From positions 1 through 57,235 of IMG/VR virus record IMGVR_UViG_3300027747_001100: a stretch of 57,235 nucleotides of DNA, one strand, 5' to 3'. Source of the DNA: a virus (taxonomy: Duplodnaviria > Caudoviricetes). Below the pieces are notes generated by a model. That model searched no databases. It saw nothing but the letters and a program-made list of their open reading frames with translations, and was not told the DNA's origin. Positions 6,740-43,323 of this stretch are shown here, in pieces; within the stretch, counting starts at the first letter, position 1, and every line of letters begins with the position of its first letter. The position numbers and the translations under genes are program-made.

Positions 6740-6750
6740 GGAACAATAAA

Positions 6751-7152: not shown

Positions 7153-7162
7153 AGGTAGCACC

Positions 7163-11045: not shown

Positions 11046-11055
11046 AGGAAAAATC

Positions 11056-11714: not shown

Positions 11715-11926
11715 ATATGTCTTTTGAAATTGACCCAGTTAAATACGGACAGCTTTGGGAAAAAGTTGATCAGTTAACCGCCAAAGTAGACAAGCTAGAA
11801 GAAGGCATGGAAGAGCTTTTAGCTTTAGCCAATAAAGGCAGAGGCGGTTTCTGGGCTGGCATGGTTATTGTGTCTGCTTTATCCACAATAGTCGGTTATA
11901 TAAGTCACTACTTTTCATCAAAATGA
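11711..11926 (+). CDS. Coiled-coil plus single C-terminal TM protein (holin or antiholin-like)
   Basis: Coiled coil followed by hydrophobic FWAGMVIVSALSTIVGYI; lies in the lysis region. Confidence 0.6.
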   Translation: MNMSFEIDPVKYGQLWEKVDQLTAKVDKLEEGMEELLALANKGRGGFWAGMVIVSALSTIVGYISHYFSSK

Positions 11927-12716: not shown

Positions 12717-12745
12717 TATAAAATGGCAAATAAAAGGGTTACCAA

Positions 12746-13378
12746 ATGACCGTTTCTTTCGTACTTACGTATGACTCGCTGACAACGACTGTGTTGCAGT
12801 ATTTAGAGCGCAACGATCCAGCAACTGTTAATCAGATACCTACTTTCATTACTATGTGCGAGTTTGAAATTGCACAGCAGATCAAGACTTTAGGTCAAAT
12901 GCAAGTTGTTGAAAGTACTATGCTAGCAGGCAATCCGGTTATACAGAAACCTGCTAGATGGCGTAAGACGGTATCATTTAATGTGGTTGTAGATGGGTCA
13001 CGAGAGCCGGTCTATTTACGGAAATATGAATACATTAAAGCCTATGCTCCGAATGCTTCAGTGACCGGGCAGCCCCTTTACTACGGGGATTATGACTATG
13101 AGCATTGGTTAGTTGGGCCAACGCCTGATAAAAATTACAATTTTGAAGTTTTATTTTATGAGCGTATTGCTCCTTTGTCTTCTGAAAACCAAACAAATTG
13201 GCTGACTCAGTATGCTCCAAATGCAATGCTATTTGGTACACTGTTACAAGCTATGCCATTCTTAAAGAATGATCAACGAGTTATATTCCAACAAAAATAT
13301 GATCAAGCTATGGCAATGCTGAAGACAGAAGACGTTACTCGCATTGGCGATCGCCAAGCAATTGCTATTGAAAGCTAA
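12746..13378 (+). CDS. Tail adaptor / tail tubular protein A-like
   Basis: IPTFITMCEFEI...GPTPDKNY...NWLTQYAPNAMLFGTLLQAMPFLKND pattern of podovirus adaptors. Confidence 0.7.
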   Translation: MTVSFVLTYDSLTTTVLQYLERNDPATVNQIPTFITMCEFEIAQQIKTLGQMQVVESTMLAGNPVIQKPARWRKTVSFNVVVDGSREPVYLRKYEYIKAYAPNASVTGQPLYYGDYDYEHWLVGPTPDKNYNFEVLFYERIAPLSSENQTNWLTQYAPNAMLFGTLLQAMPFLKNDQRVIFQQKYDQAMAMLKTEDVTRIGDRQAIAIES

Positions 13379-13380
13379 TT

Positions 13381-14610
13381 ATGACATCTTATGTAAACCC
13401 ATTCACAGGTCAAACAATTCAACCAAGTCAAGTTGGCTATGAAAAGCTAACAATTAGTACAGACACCATTCTTCAATGGCCTGTTAACGGTAACACAAAT
13501 GATGTAGTTGCTAACATTATTGAAGTTACTGCAACAGTTAATACAAATCTTAAACTAATTATGCCTGCTGCTACTCAAGTATCAGTAGGCCAAAGTGTTT
13601 TAGTTAAGAACATTGGTTCATACTCATTTACAGTCACAAAAAGTGACGGTACTACAATTATTTCAGTGGCTTCAGGTATTGCGCAATACATTTATCTTAC
13701 TGACAATACAACCATACCTGGAACTTGGTCAGTAGTTCAATTTGGTGCTGGAACAAGTTCTGCCAATGCTTCAGCTTTAGCAGGCTACGGATTAAAAGCA
13801 ATTGACACTACTTTAAATCAGTCATATAATCTTGTTGCTTACTATTCCAATACTGCTTTTACTGCCGCAAATAGAGCAGAATTTGCTGTTTGGCAAAGTG
13901 GTGTAGGTACATTTACTCTTCCGTCAGCTACAAGTGTAAGCAATAACTGGTTTATTAATATTCGTAATAATGGAACAGGCATTCTTACTATTGCTCCGGT
14001 AGGTTCTGACACTATTGACGGTGCTAGTAATAAACAGTTACAACTTACAGAGTCTTTAGTTCTTGTATCTGACGGTGCTGGAAAATTTAATTCGTTTGGT
14101 TATGGGCAATCTGCCACATTCTTTTTTACGCAATTAGCATTAGATCTTACAGGTCTTGGCCCTACTGTTACTCTTTCTTCAGCACAATCTGCCAATTTAA
14201 TTCAAGAATACTTTGGAACATTAGTAGCCAATACAACTATTATATTGCCACCTACAGTTCAGTTGTATACTGTTACAAACAATACTACAGGCGCATATAC
14301 TCTAAAGTTTTCAACAGGCACACTTGGCGCATCAACAGTACTTGTTGGACAAAACCAAACTTTAATTATTGTCTGTGATGGTACAAACGTCTATAATGCA
14401 AATAGTTCTGCAATTTCATCATTGCCTAGTTTAACTTTAAATCCAGGTTCTGCAGCTTCACCTTCATTAAATTTTTCAGGCAATACAACTACTGGCATAT
14501 ATCAACCGTCTAGTGGACAAATAGGCTTTTCATTAAACGGCACTAATAAAATGACATTAAGCTCAACCGGATTAGCTGTTATTAACGGCATTTCTGGAGG
14601 ATCATTTTGA
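13381..14610 (+). CDS. Tail structural protein
   Basis: Beta-repeat protein with xTLPxA...IxNxGxG modules; ends GGSF. Confidence 0.65.
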   Translation: MTSYVNPFTGQTIQPSQVGYEKLTISTDTILQWPVNGNTNDVVANIIEVTATVNTNLKLIMPAATQVSVGQSVLVKNIGSYSFTVTKSDGTTIISVASGIAQYIYLTDNTTIPGTWSVVQFGAGTSSANASALAGYGLKAIDTTLNQSYNLVAYYSNTAFTAANRAEFAVWQSGVGTFTLPSATSVSNNWFINIRNNGTGILTIAPVGSDTIDGASNKQLQLTESLVLVSDGAGKFNSFGYGQSATFFFTQLALDLTGLGPTVTLSSAQSANLIQEYFGTLVANTTIILPPTVQLYTVTNNTTGAYTLKFSTGTLGASTVLVGQNQTLIIVCDGTNVYNANSSAISSLPSLTLNPGSAASPSLNFSGNTTTGIYQPSSGQIGFSLNGTNKMTLSSTGLAVINGISGGSF

Positions 14611-25007: not shown

Positions 25008-25973
25008 ATGGCCAAACCTGCGTGTAGTGAGCAAGAGTTTATCGCATTATTTAAAGAACATAGGTCCCCTACGGCCGTAGCCAAAATATTGAATGTTGAT
25101 ACTAGAAGCGTCATAGCCCGTAGAAGAAATTTAGAGAAAAAACACGATATTGTGCTTGAATCAAATAATAATCGCGGTATTCCTCGATTTACCATTCCTG
25201 AAAGCAAGATTCGATGTGAGTATGAACTAATTGACGGTGTGATATTAGTAGGCTCTGATTGTCACTACAACCCAAACTATATCTCTACTGCACACAAAGC
25301 TTTTGTACACTTTGTAAAAAAATTAAAACCAAATATGGTCGTTTTAAATGGCGACTTATTTGATTTTGCACAAATTAGTGCGCATCACAGAATTGGTTAT
25401 CAACAACACCCAACTGTTAAGCAAGAACTAGAAGAAGTGCAAAACAGACTTGGCGATATTGAAAAAGTCAGACCTGCTGGATGTATATTGCATCGCACCA
25501 TTGGTAATCATGATCTTCGTTTTGATGGCAAACTGTCTAATGTTTTGCCTCAGTATGAAGGTGTAAAAGGTATGGCTTTAGCAGATCATTTGCCAGGCTG
25601 GTCATATAGCTGGTCAGTTGTAGTTAATAACAACACAATGATTAAACATCGTTGGCATAACGGTATTCATGCTGTGTACAACAACATACTTAAGGGCGGT
25701 ATGAGTATGGTTACAGGTCACCTACATTCTCTTAAAGTTACGCCATGGTCTAACTACAAAGGCGACATGTATGGTGTTGATACTGGAATGATGGCGGCAG
25801 TTAAAGATGACCAGTTTATGTACCATGAAGATTCTAGTGTTAACTGGAGAGCGGGGTTTGCAGTCCTTACTTATGTAAATGGTCATTTAATGCCGCCTGA
25901 GCTGGTTCAGGTCATTAGTGAAGATGACGGACTTGTGTTTTTTAGAGGTGAACTACATGAGATTAAACTCTGA
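25008..25973 (+). CDS. Calcineurin-like metallophosphoesterase with an N-terminal HTH-like segment
   Basis: SDCH, LNGDLFD, GNHD, HRWH and TGHLH motifs; N-terminal SPTAVAKILNVDTRSV. Confidence 0.85.
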   Translation: MAKPACSEQEFIALFKEHRSPTAVAKILNVDTRSVIARRRNLEKKHDIVLESNNNRGIPRFTIPESKIRCEYELIDGVILVGSDCHYNPNYISTAHKAFVHFVKKLKPNMVVLNGDLFDFAQISAHHRIGYQQHPTVKQELEEVQNRLGDIEKVRPAGCILHRTIGNHDLRFDGKLSNVLPQYEGVKGMALADHLPGWSYSWSVVVNNNTMIKHRWHNGIHAVYNNILKGGMSMVTGHLHSLKVTPWSNYKGDMYGVDTGMMAAVKDDQFMYHEDSSVNWRAGFAVLTYVNGHLMPPELVQVISEDDGLVFFRGELHEIKL

Positions 25974-26310
25974 AGCCATTAGCAATGCATATGCTAGTTT
26001 GTGCTGTATGTACCCGTTTACTAAATGGAAACTTCCTGTCCCTGAAGCAATTGACTTTGTAGTTGTTCATGACCCAGAAACAATGGGGACTTATTACTAT
26101 GATGATGGTGGAGACTATGAGCACACTATTACGATTAGTTCTGCTCGCTGTGGGCATTATTACACTATGCTCACAACTCTTTCACATGAAATGGTACATA
26201 TGAGTTTTTACCGTTGCAAAGGTGATAAATGGTCACAACACGGTAAAGCATTTAGAACTCGATGTAAGTTGATTGCAGATGAACTAGGCTTTGACGGCTT
26301 AGAACTTTAA
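25957..26310 (+). CDS. SprT-like zinc metalloprotease domain protein
   Basis: TTLSHEMVHM (HExxH) followed by HGKAF; ATG at 25957 follows SD gaggtg. Confidence 0.75.
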   Translation: MRLNSEAISNAYASLCCMYPFTKWKLPVPEAIDFVVVHDPETMGTYYYDDGGDYEHTITISSARCGHYYTMLTTLSHEMVHMSFYRCKGDKWSQHGKAFRTRCKLIADELGFDGLEL

Positions 26311-27162: not shown

Positions 27163-27414
27163 TTATATAATTTTCTTTTTGGTTAAAAATTTCTTATAAT
27201 GCATAACAGCTCTGTTTACAATTTGTTTCTGTAAATCGAGTTCTTTTGTTACAACTGCTTGGCTTTTTAGGCGAACTACAACAAGTCGTAAAGACTCTAT
27301 AGTTCGATCTATCCATCGAGGATGCTGCTCAATAAACTCATTAAACAAGTTTGTCCTGTCTTTAATGTTAAGCTTCTTTAGTTTTTCTTCTATGGCTGAC
27401 CAATGCTTAGACAT
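27163..27414 (-). CDS. Hypothetical basic helical protein, coupled to the ThyX-like gene
   Basis: Start MSKHWSAIEE at 27414 overlaps the ThyX-like stop; SD aggag upstream. Confidence 0.6.
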   Translation of the reverse strand: MSKHWSAIEEKLKKLNIKDRTNLFNEFIEQHPRWIDRTIESLRLVVVRLKSQAVVTKELDLQKQIVNRAVMHYKKFLTKKKII

Positions 27415-28336
27415 GAATATGCTCCTTTTTAATTGCATCAATTTGCTCTAATAAGTTCTTTCTAATGGTTTCATATATGTGACCACCTGGAAATTCATCA
27501 CGGCCGATCGGATGGTAAAACTGTTCTTCACACCAGTCAAAGTTGTCATTCTTAGCATTTGGTGGAAATATATTGGTTTTACCTTTGGCAGACTGACGCT
27601 GATAGAATGCATCAGGCTTACGGAAGTCCACAAGGCCTGATAAGAATGGATAGATCTTTAATACTTCTAACCACAACTTCATGGCAATAATATTATCTAC
27701 CGTTGTCTGAATTTGTTCATCACCTCGCATGATGCAGTAGCCAATAAGGTCTTTAATTGTACAGCGTACCATATAAAAGTGTTCAAAATTGCGAGGCATA
27801 ATAGTACGGGCATCAAGGCCGTGAACAAGACCACTATCAAGCATATCAACATACAAATCACGAGCCATTGTGGTAATTTCTCTATATCTGTTAGCAAATT
27901 CTTCATGTACCATAATCCCCGGTTTCATCATTACTCTGTCATCACGCATATCCCTATCACCATGAACTTGGGCCGCAAAACTAAACAGACGATGTCGTAT
28001 TAAATGAGTTGTGTCAATCATATCCATACCATTAACCGACCAAGTGATGTTGATCGTCTCCATGGCAGTAGGTAACAGTTCATACCTAAATAGCTCATCA
28101 ATGGTTTGGTCAATTTGGTCTTTAGGAAAGTCCCATTGAATCTTGTCATTCCATGTGTTTAATAGAAAGACTGATATTGTTTTACGAAACTCTGCAACGG
28201 TAGGTGCATGAACTATTTGTACATCAATGTTTGACAATTGATTTACAAACTCTATTGTCTTAGGTTTTTGCCCAAACTTAAGCTTTGTGTGCATTGGCTG
28301 GAGATTCTTAATCTCTGATTTATGTTTCTTAGGCAT
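27407..28336 (-). CDS. thyX: ThyX (FAD-dependent thymidylate synthase)-fold protein with a divergent active site
   Basis: HLIRHRLFSF core and DARTIMP motif identify the fold. The canonical SxRY is replaced by VHGDR, so activity is uncertain. Confidence 0.75.
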   Translation of the reverse strand: MPKKHKSEIKNLQPMHTKLKFGQKPKTIEFVNQLSNIDVQIVHAPTVAEFRKTISVFLLNTWNDKIQWDFPKDQIDQTIDELFRYELLPTAMETINITWSVNGMDMIDTTHLIRHRLFSFAAQVHGDRDMRDDRVMMKPGIMVHEEFANRYREITTMARDLYVDMLDSGLVHGLDARTIMPRNFEHFYMVRCTIKDLIGYCIMRGDEQIQTTVDNIIAMKLWLEVLKIYPFLSGLVDFRKPDAFYQRQSAKGKTNIFPPNAKNDNFDWCEEQFYHPIGRDEFPGGHIYETIRKNLLEQIDAIKKEHIHV

Positions 28337-28607
28337 TATTAATTTCCTTTAGTCGTAGTTCAACGAGTCTTGCATATCCGGCAATATCGGTCCAGCTATC
28401 GATGTGATCAGGACTTACAGCAAGTCTTGATAACTTCATAACAATCTTAGAGATGTATGTGGCATGAATCGGATGCATAGGCTCACCATGTTGCTTTAGG
28501 TGTCTATCCTTAATAGCTTCAAGTAAGTTAGCCTCAAGCTCAATACCTTCATAGAAATTGCCATATATATTGCCGCGCTCTTCTAGTACTTCATCAGTTG
28601 TAGTCAT
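28329..28607 (-). CDS. DUF6378-like small helical protein associated with phage nucleotide-metabolism loci
   Basis: LEERGNIYGNF...MKLSRL...HIDSWTDIAGYARL. Confidence 0.75.
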   Translation of the reverse strand: MTTTDEVLEERGNIYGNFYEGIELEANLLEAIKDRHLKQHGEPMHPIHATYISKIVMKLSRLAVSPDHIDSWTDIAGYARLVELRLKEINNA

Positions 28608-29116
28608 TTTGTCACCTTATAAGGTTGCAGTTTCTCTTCCATCTTTTCCATTCTTTTTGTGGTGTTTTTATAAACATCCACCATATAACCAGAATTTCCT
28701 AGACCGATTTCATTAGAAGAATATTGTAGGCATTGAAGTGCATCAGCATAGTGAACTATTAGTGCTTCAGGCGACTCATCATGATACATACGGCAGTAAT
28801 CTTTTACTTGTATAGGAAAGCCTTTATCAATCTCTTTTTCAGCTTCTAATAAAGCAGCTGCTACAGCTGGATAGTTCTTTTTAACCAGATGGTTTACATC
28901 CGAGATCTCCATTTCAGCCAAGTCATGGCATATGGCAATCTTAACCGCTGTATTGACATCAAAAGTATAGTCTTTGGACATCATTAAAACGCCTAGCGCC
29001 ACAAAGAAGCTATGCGTGGCAACAGATTCTTGATGCACAACTGGTTTCATACTGTAACGCTTAGTATGCTCCAATGAATAGCTACGCATAAAGAAATCCA
29101 TGTCTTCATTATTCAT
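28604..29116 (-). CDS. HD-domain 5'-deoxynucleotidase / dNTP hydrolase (YfbR/DatZ-like)
   Basis: KRY...ESVATHSF...CHDLAEMEISD...VKK...IVHYADALQ; start MNNEDMD at 29116 follows SD gagg. Confidence 0.85.
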   Translation of the reverse strand: MNNEDMDFFMRSYSLEHTKRYSMKPVVHQESVATHSFFVALGVLMMSKDYTFDVNTAVKIAICHDLAEMEISDVNHLVKKNYPAVAAALLEAEKEIDKGFPIQVKDYCRMYHDESPEALIVHYADALQCLQYSSNEIGLGNSGYMVDVYKNTTKRMEKMEEKLQPYKVTK

Positions 29117-29567
29117 AGTGCATCTCCTCTGACCCCCAATTACGGCGGTTAAACACACCTGTTTCACGAATCTCATACAAAGCTTTATCAAGTTCATGAT
29201 ATGATCTCACAACTGATCCTGATGCGGCCAATACAAGGTTAAACTTCTGACCAGGCTCTCCGGTTAGCCAAATATACACAATAGGAATACCCATAGCATA
29301 ACACCAGCCGGCCTCAAAGAACGTTCCAGGGTCTTTTCCATCAGTGATACACACCAATAAATTAGTGCAATTAAGAGCTGCAATATTCTCAGTAAGAATA
29401 CCTTCAGGAGTTGTGACACCGGGTTTAAATAAGCATTCATCTTTTGGGCTAAAGTATTTAAGACCGCGGTGTTCTAATATACACTTGGTCTCTTCTATTT
29501 GTTTAAGTTGTTGAGGGTTAAAAAAAGGACCGGCTAAATAAACATACGGATTCTTACCGATCATCAT
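29109..29567 (-). CDS. Nucleoside 2'-deoxyribosyltransferase family protein
   Basis: YLAGPFFN...FSP...DPGTFFEAGWCYAMGIPIV...FNLVL, with the catalytic Glu conserved. Confidence 0.85.
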   Translation of the reverse strand: MMIGKNPYVYLAGPFFNPQQLKQIEETKCILEHRGLKYFSPKDECLFKPGVTTPEGILTENIAALNCTNLLVCITDGKDPGTFFEAGWCYAMGIPIVYIWLTGEPGQKFNLVLAASGSVVRSYHELDKALYEIRETGVFNRRNWGSEEMHYE

Positions 29568-29758
29568 TTTTTCACCACCTTTTTATTCGTTGAGCCTAGT
29601 GGTCTGCCACGTTTCTTGGCTGGCGGCTCTAAATGCTTAAGAATCTTATTTAGTACACTTTCAATAGCGCTAAGCTTAAATGTAAGATCATCAACTGAAT
29701 CGTCTAATGTGTCAAGTCTAAGCTTAATTAAGTCTTTTTCTTCTTTAGTTATAAACAT
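29564..29758 (-). CDS. Small coiled-coil protein with an AT-hook-like KRGRPLGS tail
   Basis: KKRGRPLGSTNKK; strong SD aaggag. Confidence 0.7.
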   Translation of the reverse strand: MFITKEEKDLIKLRLDTLDDSVDDLTFKLSAIESVLNKILKHLEPPAKKRGRPLGSTNKKVVKK

Positions 29759-29775
29759 TTCCTTCTCCTTTAGTT

Positions 29776-29807
29776 AAGTAAACAACTACATTATACACAA
29801 GTAAACA
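29776..29807 (-). promoter_or_regulatory. Sigma70-type promoter (TG-n-TATAAT-like) flanked by two TGTTTACTT boxes, driving the NDT-HD-DUF6378-ThyX operon
   Basis: Minus strand reads TGTTTACTT-gtg-TATAAT-gtagt-TGTTTACTT. Confidence 0.6.
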
Positions 29808-29813
29808 TTACAT

Positions 29814-31181
29814 TTACTTATTTGCGTATTCTTTTATTGCTAGCATTAGTGACTGCTGAGTCTTATCTTTGGAATTAATAGCAGCAACAATTGCTTCATC
29901 AATCGTCTTCTTGGCAATGATTTGATGCACAACAATATTATTTCTTTGTCCTTGTCTCCACAATCTTCGAATAAACTGCTCAAAGATTTCTAATGACCAT
30001 GTATTACTAAACCAAATAACAGCATGACCAGCGCCTTGCAAATTAAGACCGTGGCCTGCTGACTGTGGATGAGCTAGTAATACAGGAGTGTATCCCATGT
30101 TCCATCTATTAATAATACCTGTCATCTTGTCACCAGACACACCAGAACCAATCACAGGGGCATCAGGAAAAAGCTTTTGTAGTCTTTCCAAGTCATGCTT
30201 AAAATGATAACCGATGATGCATGGTTGACCTGACAATTCCTCTACAATATCCGCTACTGCGGTTAGCTTTTCATCATGTATTTCTTGTGTGACTCTTTCT
30301 TCACCGTCTAAATAAATAGCGCCATTAGCAATTTGTTGGCATTTACCGACAGCAACTGCTGCATTCATAGCAGTAACTTGACCATTCTCGATGTCTATCA
30401 ATAACTTATCTTCTAAGTCTTTGTAAAACTTCATTGCTTTTTCAGGCAAATGCACATATACACGATTGTAGATTAGTTCTGGGAGATCCAAGTAATCCTG
30501 AGCTGACATCCGAAGAACTTTGTGTGCCAATGCTTCATGAATTTTTTCTTCTGCTCCGGCTTGTATTTGCCATGTATAACCACCGTAACCAGTCGGATAG
30601 AAGTAGTTAGTTCTAAAATGAGTAATGTACTTTCCAAATGTAGCCCCTCTATCAATAACTAATTGCGGCCCAAATATATCCATTAGACTATTTGGTGCAG
30701 GCGATCCTGTTAAGCCGAACCGCCTTTTAAACTGATCAAGCATTGGTGACAATGCTTTAAATCTTTGAGTTCGTGTATTTTTTAAATAACTAATCTCATC
30801 AACAACAAGCATGTCATATGGCATTTTGATGCCTAAACGTCTAAGAGTTGTGGACAACCATTGCAATCCTTCAAAATTAATAACATGAATTAATGAATTG
30901 TCATGCAGCTTTTTATCTTTTGTAGAACCGTGTAATACGCTGATTGTCATATCATTAAAGTTATCCCATTTCTGAATCTCTTCAGGCCAAACAGCATAGC
31001 ATGGTCGTAATGGTGCAAGAATTAATACTTTACTAATGGCATTTGCTGCTTTTAGAATCTTAATGGCTTCTAATGTAATAGAGGTTTTGCCAAGCCCTGG
31101 GTCAAGCCATAACTGACCTGATCCATTCTCAACTAAGAACTTAACCGCGTTTTGCTGATACTGATGCGGATTCCAGAGCAT
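29814..31181 (-). CDS. SNF2-family (SF2) helicase
   Basis: DPGLGKT, VVDEIS, LTGSPAPN, SAGHGLNLQ and RLWRQGQ motifs. Confidence 0.9.
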   Translation of the reverse strand: MLWNPHQYQQNAVKFLVENGSGQLWLDPGLGKTSITLEAIKILKAANAISKVLILAPLRPCYAVWPEEIQKWDNFNDMTISVLHGSTKDKKLHDNSLIHVINFEGLQWLSTTLRRLGIKMPYDMLVVDEISYLKNTRTQRFKALSPMLDQFKRRFGLTGSPAPNSLMDIFGPQLVIDRGATFGKYITHFRTNYFYPTGYGGYTWQIQAGAEEKIHEALAHKVLRMSAQDYLDLPELIYNRVYVHLPEKAMKFYKDLEDKLLIDIENGQVTAMNAAVAVGKCQQIANGAIYLDGEERVTQEIHDEKLTAVADIVEELSGQPCIIGYHFKHDLERLQKLFPDAPVIGSGVSGDKMTGIINRWNMGYTPVLLAHPQSAGHGLNLQGAGHAVIWFSNTWSLEIFEQFIRRLWRQGQRNNIVVHQIIAKKTIDEAIVAAINSKDKTQQSLMLAIKEYANK

Positions 31182-35026: not shown

Positions 35027-35401
35027 TTAGTTGCGTGATGCACGTACAGATAATTCCCAGACTTCTGATGTTGAGGTGCCTGGGATTCCCTCTCCTGAGC
35101 TTAACCGGTCTTTAAAAGCGGTTGAGCTAAGTCTTTTGTGTAGCAAATCAAAGCTTCTTGTTTCTGCTATATACTTATAAAATGCATCCCAATCAGTAAT
35201 AATAGGGTGCGTCTTTTTATTCATTGCAACTGAATGACCGTCTTCTGTAGCTGCTTTGGTAGTACCTACCTCGGACATAGCATGCATAATATCGGCTTCA
35301 AGTCTTGCAGCTTCTTTAGATAAATCACTGTCTTTAGCTGATAGTTCAGTGCGTTGACGTTTAACATCAACAAGTTTATTAATTAGTTCAGTAAGATTCA
35401 T
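35027..35401 (-). CDS. Conserved replication-module hypothetical protein
   Basis: Coiled coil plus ITDWDAFYKYI...FDLLHKRLS...IPG. Confidence 0.65.
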   Translation of the reverse strand: MNLTELINKLVDVKRQRTELSAKDSDLSKEAARLEADIMHAMSEVGTTKAATEDGHSVAMNKKTHPIITDWDAFYKYIAETRSFDLLHKRLSSTAFKDRLSSGEGIPGTSTSEVWELSVRASRN

Positions 35402-35847
35402 AGTAAGTCCGTTAAAGAGTAGTAGTTAGTTTTGACTTGTGCTTCTTTAAACATTTCATTGGCTAATTCAAACGACTTTTGCCAACGTTCTGGTTGATAT
35501 GACAATGACACATGGCGCTTAATGCCTGCTTGTATAGCCATGGCTGCACATTCAGAACAGCATTGCATAGGAAACGTATAAAGTGTGCAATCTTTTAATG
35601 ATTGCTTAGCAAATAAAATTGCATTACGCTCAGCATGTAAAGTGATTGCATACTTTAGTTCACGGTTGTTTAAGCGTGACTCTGTATCTGCAACGCCTTT
35701 AGGAAAGCCGTTAAAGCCTACACTAACAATTTCATTGTCTGCATTTACAATCACTGCGCCACATTGAGTTGATGGGTCTTTTGACCATGATGCCACAACC
35801 TTAGCCATGTCAAGATAGCGCTTATTCCATTTAAGTTCGTTATGCAT
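35398..35847 (-). CDS. dCMP deaminase
   Basis: SKDPSTQCGAVIV...GFNGFP...HAERNA...CSEC zinc motifs. Confidence 0.9.
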   Translation of the reverse strand: MHNELKWNKRYLDMAKVVASWSKDPSTQCGAVIVNADNEIVSVGFNGFPKGVADTESRLNNRELKYAITLHAERNAILFAKQSLKDCTLYTFPMQCCSECAAMAIQAGIKRHVSLSYQPERWQKSFELANEMFKEAQVKTNYYSLTDLL

Positions 35848-36391: not shown

Positions 36392-36832
36392 TTATCTTGT
36401 AGTGTTTAAAAGCAATAAAGCGATGTGGTCTTCAGGGCCTGTCCAGCCTTCTGGCTTCTGAGCATCTTGCTTATGACCTCTACGAGTGGTACCAGGAACC
36501 TTCTGCATGTTCGCCATGTGTACGATTTCAAGGATCTTAGGTAACGGTAATCCCATATGATGAGCACACCCCATGGCCACATAAGATAAGTCTGCTAATG
36601 CATCAGCTGCCGCCACCAGATCACCGTCTTCATGCGCTTTTAATAGCTCGGATAGTTCTTCCATAAGAAACCTGGCATAAAAACTAATGTCCTGAGGTTC
36701 TAAAAGCTGAGACTTGTGGTTTACAGGTAAGTTTAGTTTGGTTCTAAATTCACGAACTTTATCAAACATTGCTTGATCAGTCAATGAGACGCGTTGTGCA
36801 TCTATGCGGTCTTCAGTTGTAAAAGTAGTCAT
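36392..36832 (-). CDS. All-alpha NTP pyrophosphohydrolase (MazG / dimeric dUTPase-like)
   Basis: LMEELSEL...ADALADLSYV...VHMANMQK...KPEGWTGP. Confidence 0.8.
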   Translation of the reverse strand: MTTFTTEDRIDAQRVSLTDQAMFDKVREFRTKLNLPVNHKSQLLEPQDISFYARFLMEELSELLKAHEDGDLVAAADALADLSYVAMGCAHHMGLPLPKILEIVHMANMQKVPGTTRRGHKQDAQKPEGWTGPEDHIALLLLNTTR

Positions 36833-37937: not shown

Positions 37938-38088
37938 TTTTTCTCCACCAATGAATTGTTTTACGACGACCATACTTTAAACGAAGCTTAAATGCATGAT
38001 AATAGTTAAAAATCTTAATGACTGTTTTGTGTTGACGACGCATTGATGCCATACGTGTTTTAGCATACCGCGTTCTAATTATTCCCAT
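37930..38088 (-). CDS. Small very basic protein (52 aa)
   Basis: MGIIRTRYAKTRMASMRRQHK...GRRKTIHWWRKNV; fills the gap and overlaps both neighbours. Confidence 0.45.
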   Translation of the reverse strand: MGIIRTRYAKTRMASMRRQHKTVIKIFNYYHAFKLRLKYGRRKTIHWWRKNV

Positions 38089-38471
38089 GGAAACACCAAC
38101 CAATTGTCTAAGCGCATTTTCTTACCGTAAAAATCTAATTGATCTAATCCAACATTGTGATACAACACAGCAAACTGAGTCATAGGGTTAACTTGTTTTA
38201 AGTCTTGCATTGTTTTACCGGTGTCATAGATCTCGTCTATAATCAGTGTTTTCTCAGCTAATGAAATAGGCAATATAGCATCTTCTTTAGTGATAGCCAT
38301 CATAGGTAGTTCAAGCCGATGTGATAACATTACAGCAGGAATAAGACCGCCTCTTGTAACACCTGCAATCATTTCAAACTTTTCGCCTGAATCTTTAATT
38401 TGCTTTTGTATAACATCTAAAAGCTCATTAATTTCAGTCCAACTAACAAATGTTTTATTCTTTTTAGTCAT
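38079..38471 (-). CDS. Type I phosphoribosyltransferase (xanthine/guanine PRT-like)
   Basis: AGVTRGGLIPA...LIIDEIYDTGKT (PRPP-binding motif)...WLVFPWE. Confidence 0.85.
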   Translation of the reverse strand: MTKKNKTFVSWTEINELLDVIQKQIKDSGEKFEMIAGVTRGGLIPAVMLSHRLELPMMAITKEDAILPISLAEKTLIIDEIYDTGKTMQDLKQVNPMTQFAVLYHNVGLDQLDFYGKKMRLDNWLVFPWE

Positions 38472-40165: not shown

Positions 40166-41149
40166 ATGGCACACGAAATCGATATGTCAAACGGACAAGC
40201 TAACATGGCATACGTGGGGGAAACCCCATGGCATGGCCTTGGTCAACAACTTAAGGCAGGCGCCACAATCGAGCAATGGCGTAAAGCAGCCGGTATGAAT
40301 TTCTCTATTTATACCAGCCCAGTACAGTTCGAAAGCCCTGAAGCGGTCGGTGACCCAATGACCTTTGACGGTCATAATGTTCTATACCGCTCAGACACCA
40401 AGGTTCCACTTGCAGTGGTTTCTAATAAGTATCAGGTAGTTCAACCTAAAGAAGTACTAGAGTTTTACCGTGACCTTACGGCTGGTGCCGGCTTTAGCTT
40501 AGAAACAGCCGGTGTTCTTAAAGGCGGTAAAAAGTACTGGGCATTGGCATCCATTGGCAAAGAAGCCAAAATTCTTGATGACCAGATCAAAGGCTACCTC
40601 CTGCTAGGCTCAGCATGTGATGGCTCAATGGCTACTACAGCTATGTTTACCTCAATCCGCGTAGTGTGCAACAACACACTTGGCTTTGCAGTGTCCGAGG
40701 CTGATAACGGTACTGCCAAAGCAGTGGTTCGTATTAACCACCGCACCTCATTCGATGAAGCCAAAGTTAAGGCACAACTAGGCCTAGCCGCCAACAGCTG
40801 GGATTCTTTCCTTTACAATGTAAACGTTTGGTCCAAGACCAAGGTCGATCTGGTACAGGCACAGGCCTACTTTGATAAGGTTGCCTCATACACAACCACA
40901 GAAGGCGAGGAAAGAGTATCAGATCGTACATCCAAGTACCTCATGGAACTATTTGCTGGCGGTGGCAAAGGCAGTGATTTAAAATCGGCTAATGGAACAG
41001 CATGGGGCTTAATCAATGCAGTTACTGAGTTTGTTGACCATCACCGTGGTCGTTCTAATGATGTTCGTATCGACCGTGCTTGGTTTGGTGACGGCATTAA
41101 AACGAAAGAGCTCGCAACTGATTTAGCCAATGATCTTTGCTTTGCATGA
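40166..41149 (+). CDS. DUF932 family phage/plasmid protein
   Basis: MAHEID...MAYVGETPWHGLG...YQVVQP...ETAGVLKGGKKYW...RVVCNNTL...TAWGLINAVTEFVDH. Confidence 0.85.
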   Translation: MAHEIDMSNGQANMAYVGETPWHGLGQQLKAGATIEQWRKAAGMNFSIYTSPVQFESPEAVGDPMTFDGHNVLYRSDTKVPLAVVSNKYQVVQPKEVLEFYRDLTAGAGFSLETAGVLKGGKKYWALASIGKEAKILDDQIKGYLLLGSACDGSMATTAMFTSIRVVCNNTLGFAVSEADNGTAKAVVRINHRTSFDEAKVKAQLGLAANSWDSFLYNVNVWSKTKVDLVQAQAYFDKVASYTTTEGEERVSDRTSKYLMELFAGGGKGSDLKSANGTAWGLINAVTEFVDHHRGRSNDVRIDRAWFGDGIKTKELATDLANDLCFA

Positions 41150-41193
41150 TATGATGTTCTTCCTGCCGTCACTTATGTAGTGGCGGCACTAAA

Positions 41194-41225
41194 TAAAAAA
41201 ATCCCCGAACGTTAGTTCGGGGATT
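41194..41225. terminator. Perfect 11-bp inverted repeat with an upstream A-run (minus-strand or bidirectional terminator-like)
   Basis: aatccccgaac-gtta-gttcggggatt preceded by aaaaaa; a second hairpin lies at 41164-41188. Confidence 0.6.
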
Positions 41226-41253
41226 CAAGGTGTTTCACGTAAAGGAAATGGAA

Positions 41254-43323
41254 ATGTCATCAGGGTTTGCATCCCATACAACACAACCAGAACAATTATA
41301 CTACAATGATCTTAAAAACAGAAAAATCACTGATGAAGATGCAAAAATCTTAGGCTTAGAGTTACTGAATCCAGAGCAAACACAAGCTCTGATCGGACAC
41401 ACTAAAGACTGGGCAATCAAGATACCGTATTTTGATTTGCAAGGGCAAGCTACTGGCTTTACTCGTATTCGGCTTTTAATGCCAAAAACTAAGATGAAGT
41501 ATAGCCAGCGTAGGTCTAGTGGCGCTCACATCTATTTTCCGCCAACCATCAATTGGCAGTCATACATTAAAGATGTTAGATTACCGCTGATTATTACAGA
41601 AGGTGAGTTTAAAAGCTGGGCTATCGTAAAAGCAGTGTCTAATGAAGGCCTGAACCATGCTGTGATTGGCTTAGCAGGCGTTACTAGTTGGGGTGATAAG
41701 GCCAATGAAACGCCATTGCATAAAGACCTGATGGAGATCATGTGGAAAAAGACTACCGGTTACGAAACAGTTAACCGCCAAGTCTACGTTCTATTTGACT
41801 ATGACGGTAAAGAAGATAATGGCGAGCCTAATGAACAAGTTGCTATAGCAGAAGCACAATTAGCCAAGACACTGAGAGGACTAGGCGCTGATGTGCATCT
41901 ATGCCGCATCGGTAAATATGCTAATGCTCAATACGATAAATACGCTATTGATGACCACCTGAATGACGGCAAAACATTAGGTGAAGTGTTACTAAATGCT
42001 GAGCAATTAAGTGTCATGGGAATAGCCGATCTTAAAACGCTACTCTACGAATTTAGAACACAATATGCATTCTTTAATGGTGATGTGATTCGCTTACATG
42101 ATGGCCATGGGTTTGCATACAGTAAAGCTAAGATCGATGCCGGCCATTTGCGCTATCAATTTACCAATGCACAAGGTCAAGTTAAGAATACAGACTTGTT
42201 GGATGAGTATAAAGCTTGGCCAAAGAAGCTAAACCTAAAAGCTATTGATGTATACCCTGAGTACCAAGGTTATACCATCACACCAGATGGTGCATACAAT
42301 CTACTTAAAGATTGGCGCTATGCACCTATGGACGGTGATGTGCAGGCTTACTTAGACTTTTGTAAGTACTTTTTTCGCGACCTACCAGAGTTTGAGGATT
42401 TCTTTCACAACTGGGTAGCACAGATAGTTCAACAACCTTGGAAAAAGAACTTTACATCCATTATCTTTGCATCTAGTTTAGAAGGTGTAGGTAAATCAGC
42501 TTTGGCTGAGTTTATAGCTACTATGATGGGCATCGGCCTTAACTGGCCTGCAGGCATTTGTGGCCCTGATGAAATCTTTAAAGAAAAGAATGATGTATTA
42601 AGTGGCAAACTACTGGTAGTGGTTAACGAACCTAGCAGTGACCGTGACGACCACCAGAAGACACTCAAACACCTAGTCACATCCGACTTTATTAACATTG
42701 ATAAAAAGTACGGCCTGAAGTACACGACTAGGAATTACATTAATCTAATTCTGACCACCAATGCTTCATATGTAACCAAAATGAGCAAAAATAGCCGTCG
42801 CGATGCTATTTACATGCCTAAAACGCTGACACGCGAAGAAGGATCTATGCGATACAAAACTCTAGAACACTGGGCTAAGCATGAACACGGTTATTCTAAA
42901 GTTCTAAACTGGTACATGTGTAGAAATCTAGAAGACTATAGTCCAACAGCAGCCGCACCAACATCGGCACACAAGGACGAAGCAGTTAAGATGAGCCAAA
43001 CCAGTATTGAAGACTTTGCTGATGAGCTATATGAGATTATCGAGCATGAAATGCAAGGCATTGCAGCATTTCGGCCTAACCAGATAGAGATATTAGCAGA
43101 AGCTCTAAGCGGTCTAAAGAACGTAAAAGCCAAAGCTTTGGTCTATGCATTTAGCAAAATAGGTGAGGTTGACATGTCAGCAGTAGTTAAGATAGACGGT
43201 GTTGCTACTAGATTTCATGTGTATGTAACAAAGAGTGGAAGTTACAAAAGTAAAGTTACAAAATTGCATGATGTGATTTTAGCGACCAAAGACATGGTGA
43301 ATAAGAGGCTCAGCCTTGGATAA
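41254..43323 (+). CDS. Primase-helicase (Toprim DUF3854-like plus SF3/DUF5906-like NTPase)
   Basis: IITEGEFK, IGLAGVTSW, FDYD and IDD Toprim motifs; EGVGKS Walker A; VVVNE; INIDKKY; ILTTN. Start could be 41230, 41248 or 41254. Confidence 0.85.
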   Translation: MSSGFASHTTQPEQLYYNDLKNRKITDEDAKILGLELLNPEQTQALIGHTKDWAIKIPYFDLQGQATGFTRIRLLMPKTKMKYSQRRSSGAHIYFPPTINWQSYIKDVRLPLIITEGEFKSWAIVKAVSNEGLNHAVIGLAGVTSWGDKANETPLHKDLMEIMWKKTTGYETVNRQVYVLFDYDGKEDNGEPNEQVAIAEAQLAKTLRGLGADVHLCRIGKYANAQYDKYAIDDHLNDGKTLGEVLLNAEQLSVMGIADLKTLLYEFRTQYAFFNGDVIRLHDGHGFAYSKAKIDAGHLRYQFTNAQGQVKNTDLLDEYKAWPKKLNLKAIDVYPEYQGYTITPDGAYNLLKDWRYAPMDGDVQAYLDFCKYFFRDLPEFEDFFHNWVAQIVQQPWKKNFTSIIFASSLEGVGKSALAEFIATMMGIGLNWPAGICGPDEIFKEKNDVLSGKLLVVVNEPSSDRDDHQKTLKHLVTSDFINIDKKYGLKYTTRNYINLILTTNASYVTKMSKNSRRDAIYMPKTLTREEGSMRYKTLEHWAKHEHGYSKVLNWYMCRNLEDYSPTAAAPTSAHKDEAVKMSQTSIEDFADELYEIIEHEMQGIAAFRPNQIEILAEALSGLKNVKAKALVYAFSKIGEVDMSAVVKIDGVATRFHVYVTKSGSYKSKVTKLHDVILATKDMVNKRLSLG

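What the first reader, a model, noticed from the sequence alone, without database searches (positions are those of the whole stretch)
27163..29807. Candidate new non-canonical DNA base pathway: coupled NDT, HD hydrolase, DUF6378-like and divergent ThyX operon with no PurZ
Seen: four overlapping genes behind their own promoter encode a nucleoside 2'-deoxyribosyltransferase, a YfbR/DatZ-like HD hydrolase, a DUF6378-like protein and a ThyX-fold enzyme with an altered catalytic motif. They sit beside SNF2 helicase, VRR-NUC, exonuclease and PolA. Known: base-substituting phages pair a synthase with an enzyme that destroys the competing canonical dNTP; in Z-genome phages these are PurZ with DatZ and MazZ, near a family A DpoZ. 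Inference: this phage has the same layout, but the synthase slot holds a flavin enzyme plus a base-swapping transferase. It may therefore make and incorporate a different modified nucleotide, probably a pyrimidine. No PurZ, 7-deazaguanine, ThyA-type hydroxymethylase, glycosyltransferase or dNMP kinase gene is recognisable, so it matches no pathway I know.
Basis: partly seen in the sequence, partly recalled or inferred. Interest (0 to 1): 0.88.

Follow-up and report, generated by a model that had tools for sequence, protein, structure and literature searches.

The report
Phage base-swap module with divergent ThyX
A freshwater phage packs together a nucleotide phosphatase, a base-swapping enzyme and an unusual relative of thymidylate synthase; the same set recurs in many otherwise unrelated phages and probably rewires the supply of thymine-type DNA building blocks, possibly to make a modified base.

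Summary
The genes are real. A translationally coupled minus-strand operon (29758 to 27163) encodes orf64, a nucleoside 2'-deoxyribosyltransferase (NDT), a YfbR/HD_3-type HD nucleotidase, DUF6378, a ThyX-fold protein (ThyXL) and orf83.

ThyXL keeps the RHR motif and both conserved arginines. It replaces the canonical S-x-R-Y loop with V-H-G-D-R (family consensus C-x-G-D-R/K).

New here: ThyXL is a small, distinct, almost wholly uncultured family. Only 1 of 50,697 phage records, Geobacillus phage GR1, carries it.
- Across 82 loci in 21 lineages it travels with NDT in 21/21 lineages.
- Every lineage has one 5'-deoxynucleotidase, either HD (13) or the unrelated NT5C/HAD type (8), never both.
- An all-alpha dNTP pyrophosphatase and a Tmk/dNK-like kinase are each present in 19/21.
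- Fusions occur: pyrophosphatase-NT5C and kinase-NDT.
- Some loci also carry a canonical ThyX.
- PurZ is absent (0/10 records).

Best reading (about 0.4): a thymidine-replacement module that strips dT/dU nucleotides to nucleosides, recycles the deoxyribose by base exchange, and uses ThyXL to make a C5-modified uracil nucleotide. Ordinary dTMP supply and salvage remains a serious rival (about 0.3). The substrate and product are not shown. DUF6378 could not be tied to MazG or MazZ.

The parts
29790..29795 (-). Perfect TATAAT hexamer in the 55-nt gap between the SNF2 gene and orf64. It is a possible -10 element only.
   Evidence: Read directly. The consensus scan did not call a promoter here. A 189-nt contig from an RNA library spans 29629-29817 across the gap. 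That could be read-through transcription or contaminating DNA.
29564..29758 (-). orf64, the first gene of the coupled operon. Function unknown.
   Evidence: ORF. AAGGAG lies 7 nt upstream. No Pfam or PHROG hit. tblastn found it in 1 of 80 close-relative loci, but the query is short and sensitivity is low.
29109..29567 (-). Nucleoside 2'-deoxyribosyltransferase (NDT), nucleoside-type.
   Evidence: PF05014 at 8.7e-13. It aligns to solved NDT and PTD chains. In 76 relatives, K78-D79 is kept in 72, E85 in 70 and Y10 in 71, with the remainder gaps, and the C-terminal end is conserved.
28604..29116 (-). HD-domain phosphohydrolase of the YfbR/HD_3 5'-deoxynucleotidase kind.
   Evidence: PF13023 at 1.6e-15 and PF12917 at 3.9e-15. 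The nearest solved relatives are 2cqz, 1xx7 and HDDC2. GAGGAG precedes the ATG at 29116.
28329..28607 (-). DUF6378 protein, a four-helix protein of unknown role, specific to this phage clade.
   Evidence: PF19905 at 6.4e-8. Present in 80/80 close loci and 0/80 distant loci. Model pLDDT 86.3. No informative fold match.
27407..28336 (-). ThyXL, a divergent ThyX-fold flavoenzyme paralogue.
   Evidence: PF02511 at 9.3e-11. Model pLDDT 95.5. Foldseek hits ThyX at 1e-10. Motif analysis.
27163..27414 (-). 83-aa ORF coupled to the ThyXL stop codon. Function unknown.
   Evidence: GGAG and the ATG at 27414 overlap the ThyXL stop by 8 nt. tblastn found it in 77 of 80 close loci. No family hit.
35398..35847 (-). 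dCMP (or dCTP) deaminase, which would supply deoxyuridine nucleotides.
   Evidence: PF00383 at 4.4e-20. phrog_174 at 3.5e-43.
36392..36832 (-). All-alpha (MazG/PRA-PH type) nucleotide pyrophosphohydrolase. It is the window's candidate for the dNTP-to-dNMP step.
   Evidence: PF01503 at 9.2e-15. phrog_671 at 9e-27. Its similarity to the relatives' dUTPase_2-like proteins is not significant by hhalign.
38079..38471 (-). Phosphoribosyltransferase-like protein, possibly for salvage of freed bases.
   Evidence: PF00156 at 2e-7. phrog_8995 at 4.3e-20. Its link to the module is an inference only.

Best explanation
The operon is this phage's version of a conserved five-activity nucleotide-pool module.
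1. An all-alpha pyrophosphatase cuts a pyrimidine dNTP to the dNMP.
2. A 5'-deoxynucleotidase takes the dNMP to the deoxynucleoside. It is the HD type here and the unrelated NT5C/HAD type elsewhere.
3. The NDT moves the deoxyribose onto another base.
4. In most relatives a Tmk/dNK-like kinase, sometimes fused to the NDT, re-phosphorylates the product.
5. A ThyX paralogue (ThyXL) with a rebuilt catalytic loop adds a one-carbon unit to a uracil ring.

The most likely purpose is thymidine replacement. dTTP and dTMP would be drained to thymidine, as in dU- and 5-hmU-DNA phages. The deoxyribose would be recycled by base swap, for example dT + uracil giving dU + thymine. ThyXL would then turn the uracil nucleotide into a C5-modified product, of the 5-hydroxymethyl type, rather than plain dTMP. 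In some lineages the product may then be glycosylated.

Shown: gene identities, fold, motif change, conservation, complementary distribution of the two nucleotidases, and the fusions.
Inferred: every substrate, the direction of flux, and the product.
For: 1. ThyXL is a distinct family. Of 1.84 billion cluster representatives, 150 match at E <= 1e-3 and 75 at E <= 1e-10. Family members carry C-x-G-D-R/K, and the canonical S-x-R-Y appears only among the weakest hits.

2. The changed residues matter in canonical ThyX.
- T. maritima S88, R90 and Y91 are needed for consumption of the flavin carbinolamine (PMC8316439, passages).
- R78, R80, S88 and R90 hydrogen-bond dUMP (PMC3498832, passage).
- In the window these positions read R114, R116, V124 and G126, and the Y91 position is D127.

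3. Linkage across 82 loci (80 distant, plus the window and GR1), which fall into 21 lineages:
- NDT in 21/21 lineages. By ORF plus HMM it is in 74/82 loci. Adding three loci found only by tblastn gives 77/82. The other five are cut by contig ends.
- HD in 13 lineages (25 loci) and NT5C in 8 lineages (53 loci), with both together in 0 loci.
- Pyrophosphatase in 19/21 lineages and kinase in 19/21.
- The median gap between NDT and ThyXL is 572 nt.

4. Fusions. 43 of 53 NT5C proteins carry the dUTPase_2-like domain. 18 of 74 NDTs carry an N-terminal Tmk/dNK-like domain.

5. The flanking replication genes differ. The window's SNF2, nuclease and PolA genes are found in 0/80 distant loci.

6. The module also occurs in a 467-kb phage. 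In 100-kb phages NDT lies about 25 kb from ThyXL.

7. Precedent. The dTMP phosphatases of dU-DNA phages come from exactly these two families: PF06941 in PBS1 and YfbR-type HD in DSS3_VP1 (PMC12697855, passages).

8. A canonical ThyX (221 aa, PF02511 at 1.3e-34, with the E-S-A-R-Y motif) lies within 4 kb of ThyXL in 15/82 loci.

9. The window also has a dCMP deaminase and a MazG-type pyrophosphatase.

10. Hints of a hydroxyl handle on the base:
- a glycosyltransferase lies between HD and ThyXL in GR1;
- one family member has a weak GT2 domain fused to ThyXL;
- an NAD-dependent epimerase lies next to NDT in 27 loci.

11. The NDT Asp six residues before the catalytic Glu aligns with the Asp of nucleoside NDTs and with a Ser in BlsM.
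Against: - No chemistry was measured, and no virion DNA composition is known for any carrier.
- The window (93% complete), three further records tested and GR1 (a complete record) have no other thymidylate synthase gene. ThyA is absent in 0/5 records, and ThyXL is the only Thy1 hit in 4 of 5. ThyXL could therefore simply be their thymidylate synthase.
- The RHR motif and both conserved arginines (equivalents of M. tuberculosis R172 and R199) are retained. A dUMP-like substrate and ordinary methylation therefore remain possible with a differently built loop.
- The position that is Cys in most of the family is Val in the window, so that residue is not essential.
- The window has no detectable kinase or glycosyltransferase.
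- Most of the 21 lineages share a PolIII-alpha replication module (18/21). They are therefore not fully independent samples.
- Counts rest on my own simple ORF caller. It lost at least two ThyXL and three NDT ORFs.
- The role of the NDT Asp, and the mapping of M. tuberculosis residue roles, are partly recalled and not tested here.
Confidence: 0.4

Rival explanations
1. Ordinary dTTP supply plus deoxynucleoside salvage. ThyXL is a divergent but functional flavin-dependent thymidylate synthase. The nucleotidase, NDT and kinase re-balance host-derived deoxynucleotides, for example moving deoxyribose from dG or dC to A or T for a 40% G+C phage. No modified base is made.
For: - ThyXL is the only thymidylate-synthase-like gene in the window, in GR1 and in two other records.
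- A dCMP deaminase is present.
- The RHR motif and the two arginines are kept.
- Authors of the Asgard-virus preprint read a dUTPase-ThyX-DUF1599 block as plain dTMP synthesis (passage).
- The window is 37-41% G+C in this region.
Against: - S88, R90 and Y91, whose mutation cripples T. maritima ThyX, are all replaced across the family.
- A canonical ThyX sits beside ThyXL in 15/82 loci.
- A 5'-nucleotidase fused to a dUTPase-like domain (43/53) would destroy dUMP, the thymidylate synthase substrate.
- Both nucleotidase families are dTMP-preferring in the phages where they have been assayed.
- The strict pairing of this particular ThyX clade with this particular NDT clade is not expected for generic salvage. 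Both clades are found strongly in only one and the same isolate among 50,697 phage records.
Confidence: 0.3
2. Thymidine is made at the nucleoside or base level. ThyXL methylates deoxyuridine or free uracil rather than dUMP. NDT puts the thymine on deoxyribose supplied by the pyrophosphatase and nucleotidase, and a kinase finishes the job. The product is normal T made by a new route.
For: - Two of the four residues said to hydrogen-bond dUMP (S88, R90) are lost, and the M. tuberculosis R87 position is also lost. The uracil-side arginines are kept.
- The partners are nucleoside-type: an NDT with the Asp, nucleotidases and a kinase fused to NDT.
Against: - It has no obvious advantage over dUMP methylation.
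- The equivalents of R78, R80 and M. tuberculosis R172 are retained, so a phosphate site may still exist.
- It does not explain the co-resident canonical ThyX.
Confidence: 0.12
3. A purine-side system. The HD enzyme is a DatZ-like dATPase and the NDT drains deoxyadenosine, as proposed for aquatic Z-genome phages. ThyXL is only a neighbouring thymidylate synthase.
For: - The best PHROG for the HD is 'dATP triphosphohydrolase' at 1.2e-13.
- A preprint reports NDT co-occurring with DatZ-type HD and PolA in aquatic dZ contigs, and one NDT preferring dA as donor (bioRxiv 10.1101/2025.10.22.683976, passages).
- DmtZ is an NDT-family enzyme of Z phages (PMC12884076, passages).
Against: - No PurZ or PurA homologue in 0/10 records, six of them estimated 100% complete.
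- DatZ is not among the solved relatives of the HD at E <= 1.
- In 8 lineages the HD is replaced by NT5C fused to a dUTPase-like domain, which points to pyrimidines.
- The constant partner is ThyXL, not PolA. PolA is found in 0/80 distant loci.
Confidence: 0.08

Closest known systems
Thymidine-excluding pathways of dU-DNA and 5-hmdU-DNA phages (PBS1, DSS3_VP1, phiR1-37; SPO1-type)
   Same: - dT nucleotides are removed by a dTTP pyrophosphatase and/or a dTMP phosphatase. The phosphatases come from the same two families seen here, PF06941 and YfbR-type HD.
- A dCMP/dCTP deaminase feeds the uracil branch.
- In the 5-hmdU phages a thymidylate-synthase-like enzyme makes the replacement nucleotide (as described in PMC8989533, passage).
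   Different: - The synthase candidate here has the ThyX fold, not the ThyA fold. ThyA is absent in 0/5 records.
- An NDT, and usually a kinase, are constant partners. In the passages I read, no NDT is described for those systems.
- No replacement base has been demonstrated.
Z-genome cluster (PurZ, DatZ, MazZ, DpoZ; DutZ and DmtZ)
   Same: The logic is the same: a synthase paired with enzymes that destroy the competing canonical nucleotide. An HD hydrolase and an NDT-family enzyme take part in some Z phages.
   Different: - No PurZ in 0/10 records.
- DmtZ works on dAMP, while the NDT here has the nucleoside-type Asp.
- The partner is a pyrimidine-type enzyme.
Canonical flavin-dependent thymidylate synthase ThyX (T. 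maritima, M. tuberculosis, PBCV-1) and PolB, the UMP/dUMP methylase
   Same: The fold (Foldseek 1e-10 to 1e-8), the RHR motif, and the equivalents of M. tuberculosis R172 and R199.
   Different: - The S-x-R-Y loop is replaced by C/V-x-G-D-R/K.
- The protein is about 90 residues longer.
- Identity is 14-18%.
- A direct phmmer search against the PDB gives only E = 0.04.
Bacillus phage SP-15, with two Thy1 proteins (gp9, gp130)
   Same: It is a phage with hypermodified thymidine that carries two ThyX-family genes. Its authors hypothesised that one is a hydroxymethyluridylate synthase (PMC5977210, passage). This parallels the loci here that hold both ThyX and ThyXL.
   Different: tblastn with three ThyXL queries did not hit SP-15 at E <= 1e-4 or 1e-5. 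That idea is also untested.
MilA/MilB and BlsM in nucleoside-antibiotic biosynthesis
   Same: A pyrimidine C5-modifying thymidylate-synthase-like enzyme is paired with an NDT-superfamily enzyme. MilB and BlsM were among the solved relatives of the NDT. The MilA pairing itself is recalled.
   Different: Those enzymes act on ribonucleotides as hydrolases and carry Ser where this NDT has Asp. They are ThyA-type and not from phages.

Membership tests
ThyX (Pfam Thy1, flavin-dependent thymidylate synthase) | Thy1 profile match above the curated cut-off, and the ThyX fold | tested here: met
   42.3 bits against a cut-off of 24.8. Model pLDDT 95.5. Foldseek hits to ThyX chains at E = 1.4e-10, TM (target-normalised) 0.64-0.73.
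ThyX (Pfam Thy1, flavin-dependent thymidylate synthase) | RHR motif (T. maritima R78-H79-R80) | tested here: met
   R114-H115-R116 in the window. R114 is invariant and R116 is kept in at least 90% of 41 sequences. Some family members have Y, S, T, N or Q at the His position.
ThyX (Pfam Thy1, flavin-dependent thymidylate synthase) | S-x-R-Y substrate and catalytic loop (T. maritima S88, R90, Y91) | tested here: not met
   The window has V124, G126 and D127. The family consensus is C-x-G-D-R/K. The roles of these residues come from PMC8316439 and PMC3498832.
ThyX (Pfam Thy1, flavin-dependent thymidylate synthase) | Arginines of the ARxxLP and R...Q motifs (M. tuberculosis R172, R199) | tested here: met
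   R177 and R204 are nearly invariant and align to the M. tuberculosis ThyX motifs. The residue numbering and roles are recalled.
ThyX (Pfam Thy1, flavin-dependent thymidylate synthase) | Converts dUMP to dTMP and complements thyA | not testable with these tools
   Needs an enzyme assay or a genetic complementation test.
Nucleoside 2'-deoxyribosyltransferase (PF05014) | Profile match above the cut-off, and a catalytic Glu in D-x-G-T/S-x-x-E-x-G | tested here: met
   48.9 bits against a cut-off of 28.8. E85 aligns with the Glu of 6evs and 1s2d. It is kept in 70 of 76 relatives, with the rest gaps.
Nucleoside 2'-deoxyribosyltransferase (PF05014) | Asp six residues before the Glu (nucleoside type), where nucleotide hydrolases have Ser | tested here: met
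   D79 aligns with the Asp of 6evs and 1s2d and with the Ser of BlsM 5vto. It is kept in 72 of 76. The meaning of this position is recalled from work on engineered NDTs, not tested here.
Nucleoside 2'-deoxyribosyltransferase (PF05014) | Transglycosylation activity and donor/acceptor range | not testable with these tools
   Needs an assay.
YfbR/HD_3 5'-deoxynucleotidase | Profile matches above the cut-offs, and the H...HD...D metal motif | tested here: met
   PF13023 at 57.8 bits and PF12917 at 56.4 bits. H-S-F, H-D-L-A-E and A-D align with those of 2cqz, 1xx7 and HDDC2.
DatZ (dATP triphosphohydrolase of Z phages) | Close kinship to DatZ, and its dA-specific residues | tested here: inconclusive
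   The best PHROG bears that name. No DatZ chain was among the PDB hits at E <= 1. The specificity residues were not aligned.
   - The model is four helices, pLDDT 86.
- Foldseek gave nothing at E <= 0.001.
- The VIA-align best Z was 7.7, to unrelated helical proteins.
- hhalign against the relatives' dUTPase_2-like family gave probability 0.1%.
Z-genome system | PurZ (adenylosuccinate-synthetase homologue) | tested here: not met
   PF00709 was found in 0 of 10 virus records, while the control genomes scored 14/14.
SPO1-type 5-hmdU pathway | ThyA-family dUMP hydroxymethylase | tested here: not met
   PF00303 was found in 0 of 5 records, including the window and GR1. A short ThyA-like protein exists only in 12 distant loci.

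The most novel reading that the evidence does not exclude
ThyXL is the first flavin-dependent (ThyX-fold) pyrimidine C5-hydroxymethylase, or another non-methyl one-carbon transferase. It makes a thymine-replacing nucleotide. The nucleotidase-NDT-kinase chain converts the host's thymidine nucleotides into its uracil substrate by base swap. On this reading a widespread set of uncultured freshwater, marine and gut phages, and Geobacillus phage GR1, have T-substituted DNA, glycosylated in some lineages, made by a pathway with no ThyA-type enzyme.
Probability: 0.3. Interest if true: 0.92.

Novelty: new variant of a known kind. Interest (0 to 1): 0.78.

Why it matters
Phage DNA base replacement is known from a handful of pathways: ThyA-type hydroxymethylases, PurZ, 7-deazaguanine and dU.

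This would be a module built from different enzyme families: a ThyX paralogue, a true nucleoside deoxyribosyltransferase, and interchangeable HD or HAD nucleotidases. It is conserved across at least 21 lineages, from 43-kb to 467-kb phages, in freshwater, marine and gut samples.

If the modified-base reading holds, it gives:
- a new flavoenzyme chemistry;
- a new way of recycling deoxyribose from an excluded nucleotide;
- a marker gene pair for finding modified-DNA phages in metagenomes.

If the ordinary reading holds, it still defines an unrecognised ThyX subfamily that works without the residues thought essential in canonical ThyX.

It is directly testable, because one isolate (GR1) carries the whole module.

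Tried and rejected
DUF6378:
- As a MazG/MazZ-like pyrophosphatase. hhalign against the relatives' dUTPase_2-like family gave nothing. Foldseek and VIA-align gave only generic helical matches. The protein atlas returned only DUF6378 clusters.
- As a relative of DUF1599/NMAD1. Only an 11-column E-x-x-x-x-Y-G stretch aligned, at E = 0.32. This stays a lead.
- As a subunit of ThyXL. The complex-prediction job gave no verdict, score 0.00.

Searches that reached nothing or little:
- The window's PRA-PH protein against the relatives' pyrophosphatase family: motifs line up, but probability is 4%.
- A scan of viral contigs with P0136 found no relative.
- Three alignments were too diverse for pattern scans.
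- Scans of genome contigs found nothing with the window's protein. With P0133 they found one Ruminococcus MAG contig.
- megablast of the region against phages gave no match.

Other tests:
- The 411-aa 'thymidylate synthetase' of Streptococcus phage GXN1 is not a family member. Its Thy1 hit is below the cut-off at E = 2.4e-4, hhalign probability is 2.7%, and the ThyXL HMM does not hit it.
- The promoter scan found no site in the gap.
- RNA-library contigs from two studies lie on parts of the operon at 100% identity. They are short contigs, DNA carry-over cannot be excluded, and uncovered parts say nothing.
- A treekit tree call gave no answer. A FastTree run replaced it.

Closed or unseen:
- Supplements were not opened. 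The domain lists and NDT sequences of the dZ metaGPA preprint, and the NDT-like HMM of PMC12884076, could show whether their 'inactive' NDTs belong to this clade.

Literature. Searches listed no paper whose title or abstract describes a ThyX-NDT module or a ThyX-family hydroxymethylase. Only the passages cited above were opened, and no hit of one search was opened. The searches for GR1 and for DUF6378 gave nothing useful.

Full report
**What is in the window**

The window is a 57,235-base virus record estimated 93% complete. It has no close relative among 50,697 phage genome records.

Six ORFs lie head to tail on the minus strand between 29758 and 27163, with overlaps of 4 to 8 nt.

| Gene | Coordinates | Identification |
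|---|---|---|
| orf64 | 29564-29758 | no family hit |
| NDT | 29109-29567 | PF05014, 8.7e-13 |
| HD hydrolase | 28604-29116 | PF13023 1.6e-15; PF12917 YfbR-like 3.9e-15 |
| DUF6378 | 28329-28607 | PF19905, 6.4e-8 |
| ThyX-like (ThyXL) | 27407-28336 | PF02511, 9.3e-11 |
| 83-aa ORF | 27163-27414 | no family hit |

All four named matches exceed the curated cut-offs.

Upstream lie an SNF2 helicase, a small nuclease, a PD-(D/E)XK nuclease and PolA. The nuclease matches only a PHROG family and has no Pfam VRR-NUC hit. Further along the same strand are a dCMP deaminase (35398-35847), a MazG/PRA-PH pyrophosphatase (36392-36832) and a phosphoribosyltransferase-like protein (38079-38471).

No kinase, glycosyltransferase, ThyA or PurZ was found in the window.

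The 55-nt gap before orf64 holds a perfect TATAAT with a poor -35. The promoter scan did not flag it, and the region had 12 promoter-like sites against 14.6 expected.

**The ThyX-like protein**

The AlphaFold2 model is confident, with pLDDT 95.5. Its best structural matches are M. tuberculosis and T. maritima ThyX and the UMP/dUMP methylase PolB, at 14-18% identity. Plain sequence search of the PDB gives only E = 0.04. A profile of 41 family members reaches 5e-13.

- The RHR motif is kept (R114-H115-R116).
- The arginines that align with M. tuberculosis R172 and R199 are kept (R177, R204).
- The loop that reads S-x-R-Y in canonical enzymes reads V-H-G-D-R in the window and C-x-G-D-R/K in most of the family.
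- In T. maritima ThyX, S88, R90 and Y91 are needed for the step in which dUMP consumes the flavin carbinolamine (PMC8316439, passages).
- R78, R80, S88 and R90 are named as the residues that hydrogen-bond dUMP (PMC3498832, passage).

Half of the dUMP contacts, and the proposed acid catalysts, are therefore replaced.

The family is small. Of 1.84 billion cluster representatives, 150 match at E <= 1e-3 and 75 at E <= 1e-10. Canonical S-x-R-Y proteins appear only among the weakest hits.

**Who else has it**

- Close relatives (81-98% identity) are common in viral contigs: 105 of 107 candidate stretches were confirmed and 80 kept.
- In those 80 loci, tblastn found NDT in 71, HD in 77, DUF6378 in 80 and the 83-aa ORF in 77. 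The misses are mostly short contigs.
- Among 50,697 phage records only Geobacillus phage GR1 has a full-length relative, at 36% identity.
- In GR1, NDT, HD, a glycosyltransferase, a P-loop kinase-like protein, a nitroreductase and ThyXL lie within 6 kb.
- The window's NDT and HD also find GR1 as one of only 3 and 2 records respectively.

**The module in distant phages**

A profile scan fetched 80 distant loci, 41-63% identical to the query P0133 and about 30-37% identical to the window. Their flanking replication genes are different: the window's SNF2, nucleases and PolA are found in 0 of 80.

I called ORFs with a simple script, clustered them and built HMMs. This covered 82 loci: these 80 plus the window and GR1. 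They fall into 21 lineages at 70% ThyXL identity.

| Component | Lineages (of 21) | Loci (of 82) |
|---|---|---|
| NDT | 21 | 74 by ORF+HMM; 77 with tblastn |
| HD nucleotidase | 13 | 25 |
| NT5C (HAD-family 5'-deoxynucleotidase, PF06941) | 8 | 53 |
| All-alpha dUTPase_2-like pyrophosphatase | 19 | 77 |
| Tmk/dNK-like kinase | 19 | 42 |

- The five loci without NDT are all cut by contig ends.
- No locus has both nucleotidases. Four loci have neither; two of these are cut short, and L136 and L154 are not.
- 43 of 53 NT5C proteins are fused to the pyrophosphatase domain.
- 18 of 74 NDTs carry the kinase at their N-terminus.
- The median gap between NDT and ThyXL is 572 nt.
- A 467-kb phage has kinase, ThyXL, NDT and HD within 7 kb.
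- Four 90-108-kb records (three of them complete) have ThyXL with NDT about 25 kb away.
- A FastTree of 68 ThyXL sequences was rooted on three canonical ThyX, with no support values inspected. All HD-bearing loci, including the window and GR1, fall in one clade. Three NT5C-bearing loci (L095, L109, L126) nest inside it. If the root is right, the nucleotidase changed at least twice.

**What the partners say**

- The NDT keeps Y10, K78-D79 and E85 and has a conserved C-terminal end. D79 aligns with the Asp of nucleoside transferases and with a Ser in the nucleotide hydrolase BlsM. From memory, that position separates nucleoside from nucleotide substrates.
- Three lines of evidence describe one route: nucleotidases of two unrelated folds, pyrophosphatase-nucleotidase fusions, and kinase-NDT fusions. 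The route is to dephosphorylate a dNTP to the nucleoside, swap the base, and re-phosphorylate.
- The dUTPase-like domain points to pyrimidine nucleotides. So does the finding that the dTMP phosphatases of dU-DNA phages PBS1 and DSS3_VP1 belong to PF06941 and to the YfbR HD family respectively (PMC12697855, passages).
- In 15 of 82 loci (4 lineages) a canonical 221-aa ThyX lies a few kb upstream of ThyXL. It has the E-S-A-R-Y motif and matches PF02511 at 1.3e-34. The two are therefore unlikely to be redundant.
- In 12 loci (7 lineages) a 198-aa ThyA-like protein follows ThyXL. It keeps a Cys and an R-S-x-D motif. By my recalled E. coli numbering, it has Asp at the Asn177 position.
- Hints of glycosylation: the GR1 glycosyltransferase, a weak GT2-ThyXL fusion in P0143, and an NAD-dependent epimerase beside NDT in 27 loci.

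**Interpretation**

The best-supported reading is a thymidine-replacement module. dT (or dU) nucleotides are drained to nucleosides. The deoxyribose is recycled by NDT. ThyXL installs a one-carbon group that is not simply reduced to methyl.

This reading accounts for four things: the two interchangeable nucleotidase families, the fusions, the rebuilt catalytic loop, and the coexistence with canonical ThyX. It matches the enzyme list of known T-excluding phages, apart from the fold of the synthase and the added NDT.

It is not proven. In the window and in GR1, ThyXL is the only thymidylate-synthase-like gene, and the RHR and arginine residues are kept. Plain dTMP synthesis with salvage remains a strong rival.

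A purine-side (DatZ-like) reading draws on recent reports of NDTs in Z phages. It fits poorly: PurZ is absent from 0 of 10 records, DatZ is not among the HD's solved relatives, and the constant partner is ThyXL rather than PolA.

**DUF6378**

It is confined to the window's clade. It models as a four-helix protein. No significant fold or profile link to MazG, to the relatives' pyrophosphatases or to DUF1599 was found. Its role is open.

**Other data**

- Freshwater metagenome runs hold the region.
- Short contigs from two metatranscriptome studies lie on ThyXL, HD, NDT and orf64 at 100% identity. One spans the gap before orf64. DNA carry-over cannot be excluded.
- Literature searches listed no paper whose title or abstract describes this module or a ThyX-family hydroxymethylase; I opened only the passages cited.
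- The nearest idea in print is the untested suggestion that SP-15 gp130, a Thy1 protein, makes hydroxymethyl-dUMP (PMC5977210, passage).
Supplements were not seen.

**Verdict**

The function is unproven.

I rate it a new variant of a known kind: a phage module that pairs a nucleotide synthase with enzymes that remove a canonical nucleotide. It can be tested directly in one isolate, GR1.

Noticed in passing
L084:9002-9598 and 11 other distant loci (cluster c27): A 198-aa ThyA-like protein lies directly downstream of ThyXL (phrog_160 at 3.5e-10; Pfam Thymidylat_synt only at 0.0023). It keeps a Cys, an R-S-x-D motif and G-S-L-H-x-Y. By recalled E. coli numbering it has Asp at the Asn177 position, the change that marks dCMP-specific enzymes such as T4 gp42. 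It may be a minimal dCMP-modifying enzyme.
   Followed up: partly
L125:4178-4843 and 14 other distant loci (cluster c23): A canonical ThyX (221 aa, E-S-A-R-Y motif, PF02511 at 1.3e-34) lies a few kb upstream of ThyXL. These phages therefore carry two ThyX-family genes, like Bacillus phage SP-15.
   Followed up: yes
L113:4484-6441 and 33 other distant loci (cluster c5): Fpg/Nei-type DNA glycosylase genes (PF01149, PF06831), often two per locus (55 proteins in 34 loci), lie just upstream of the pyrophosphatase-NT5C-ThyXL block in the large phages. This is unusual for phages and unexplained.
   Followed up: no
L169 (Streptococcus phage vB_SagM-GXN1, PQ819873) 7501-9838: An unannotated NDT and an HD gene, 42-45% identical to those of the L084-type loci, are followed by a 411-aa protein annotated as thymidylate synthetase. 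That protein has only a sub-threshold Thy1 hit and lacks the RHR motif. It may be a still more divergent partner in a second cultured phage.
   Followed up: partly
L168 (467,383-base viral contig with terminal repeats) 6985-13978: A jumbo phage carries a kinase-like gene, ThyXL, NDT and HD within 7 kb.
   Followed up: partly
L170 (contig binned in a Ruminococcus sp. MAG) 6101-12231: The contig holds a complete L084-type module: pyrophosphatase, kinase-NDT fusion, HD, ThyXL, ThyA-like protein and PolIII alpha. This suggests gut Firmicutes as hosts for that lineage. It is probably a phage contig.
   Followed up: partly
P0122 (515 aa) and P0143 (551 aa), family members: P0122 is ThyXL followed by an HNH homing-endonuclease domain. 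P0143 has a weak N-terminal GT2 glycosyltransferase match (E = 1.6e-4, below the cut-off) fused to ThyXL. P0229, a weaker relative, has a weak DUF1599 (nucleotide modification associated domain 1) match before its Thy1 domain.
   Followed up: partly
window 52904-53326 (+): A Cpn10/GroES-like co-chaperonin gene (PF00166, 4.9e-8) lies in the structural region, just upstream of the ORFs that precede the capsid gene (55622-56536).
   Followed up: no
window 40166-43323 (+): A DUF932 protein (1.4e-60) is followed by a 697-aa DUF3854/DUF5906 protein. This is probably the primase-helicase of the phage. It is on the opposite strand to the PolA block.
   Followed up: no
window 25008-26310 (+): A calcineurin-like phosphoesterase (PF00149, 5.1e-5) and an SprT-like metalloprotease (PF10263, 4.1e-7) close the plus-strand structural block and face the operon.
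   Followed up: no
L001 (GR1) 7286-7885 and five related loci: A nitroreductase-family flavoprotein (PF00881, 6.9e-24) lies immediately upstream of ThyXL. It may be a dedicated flavin reductase for it.
   Followed up: no
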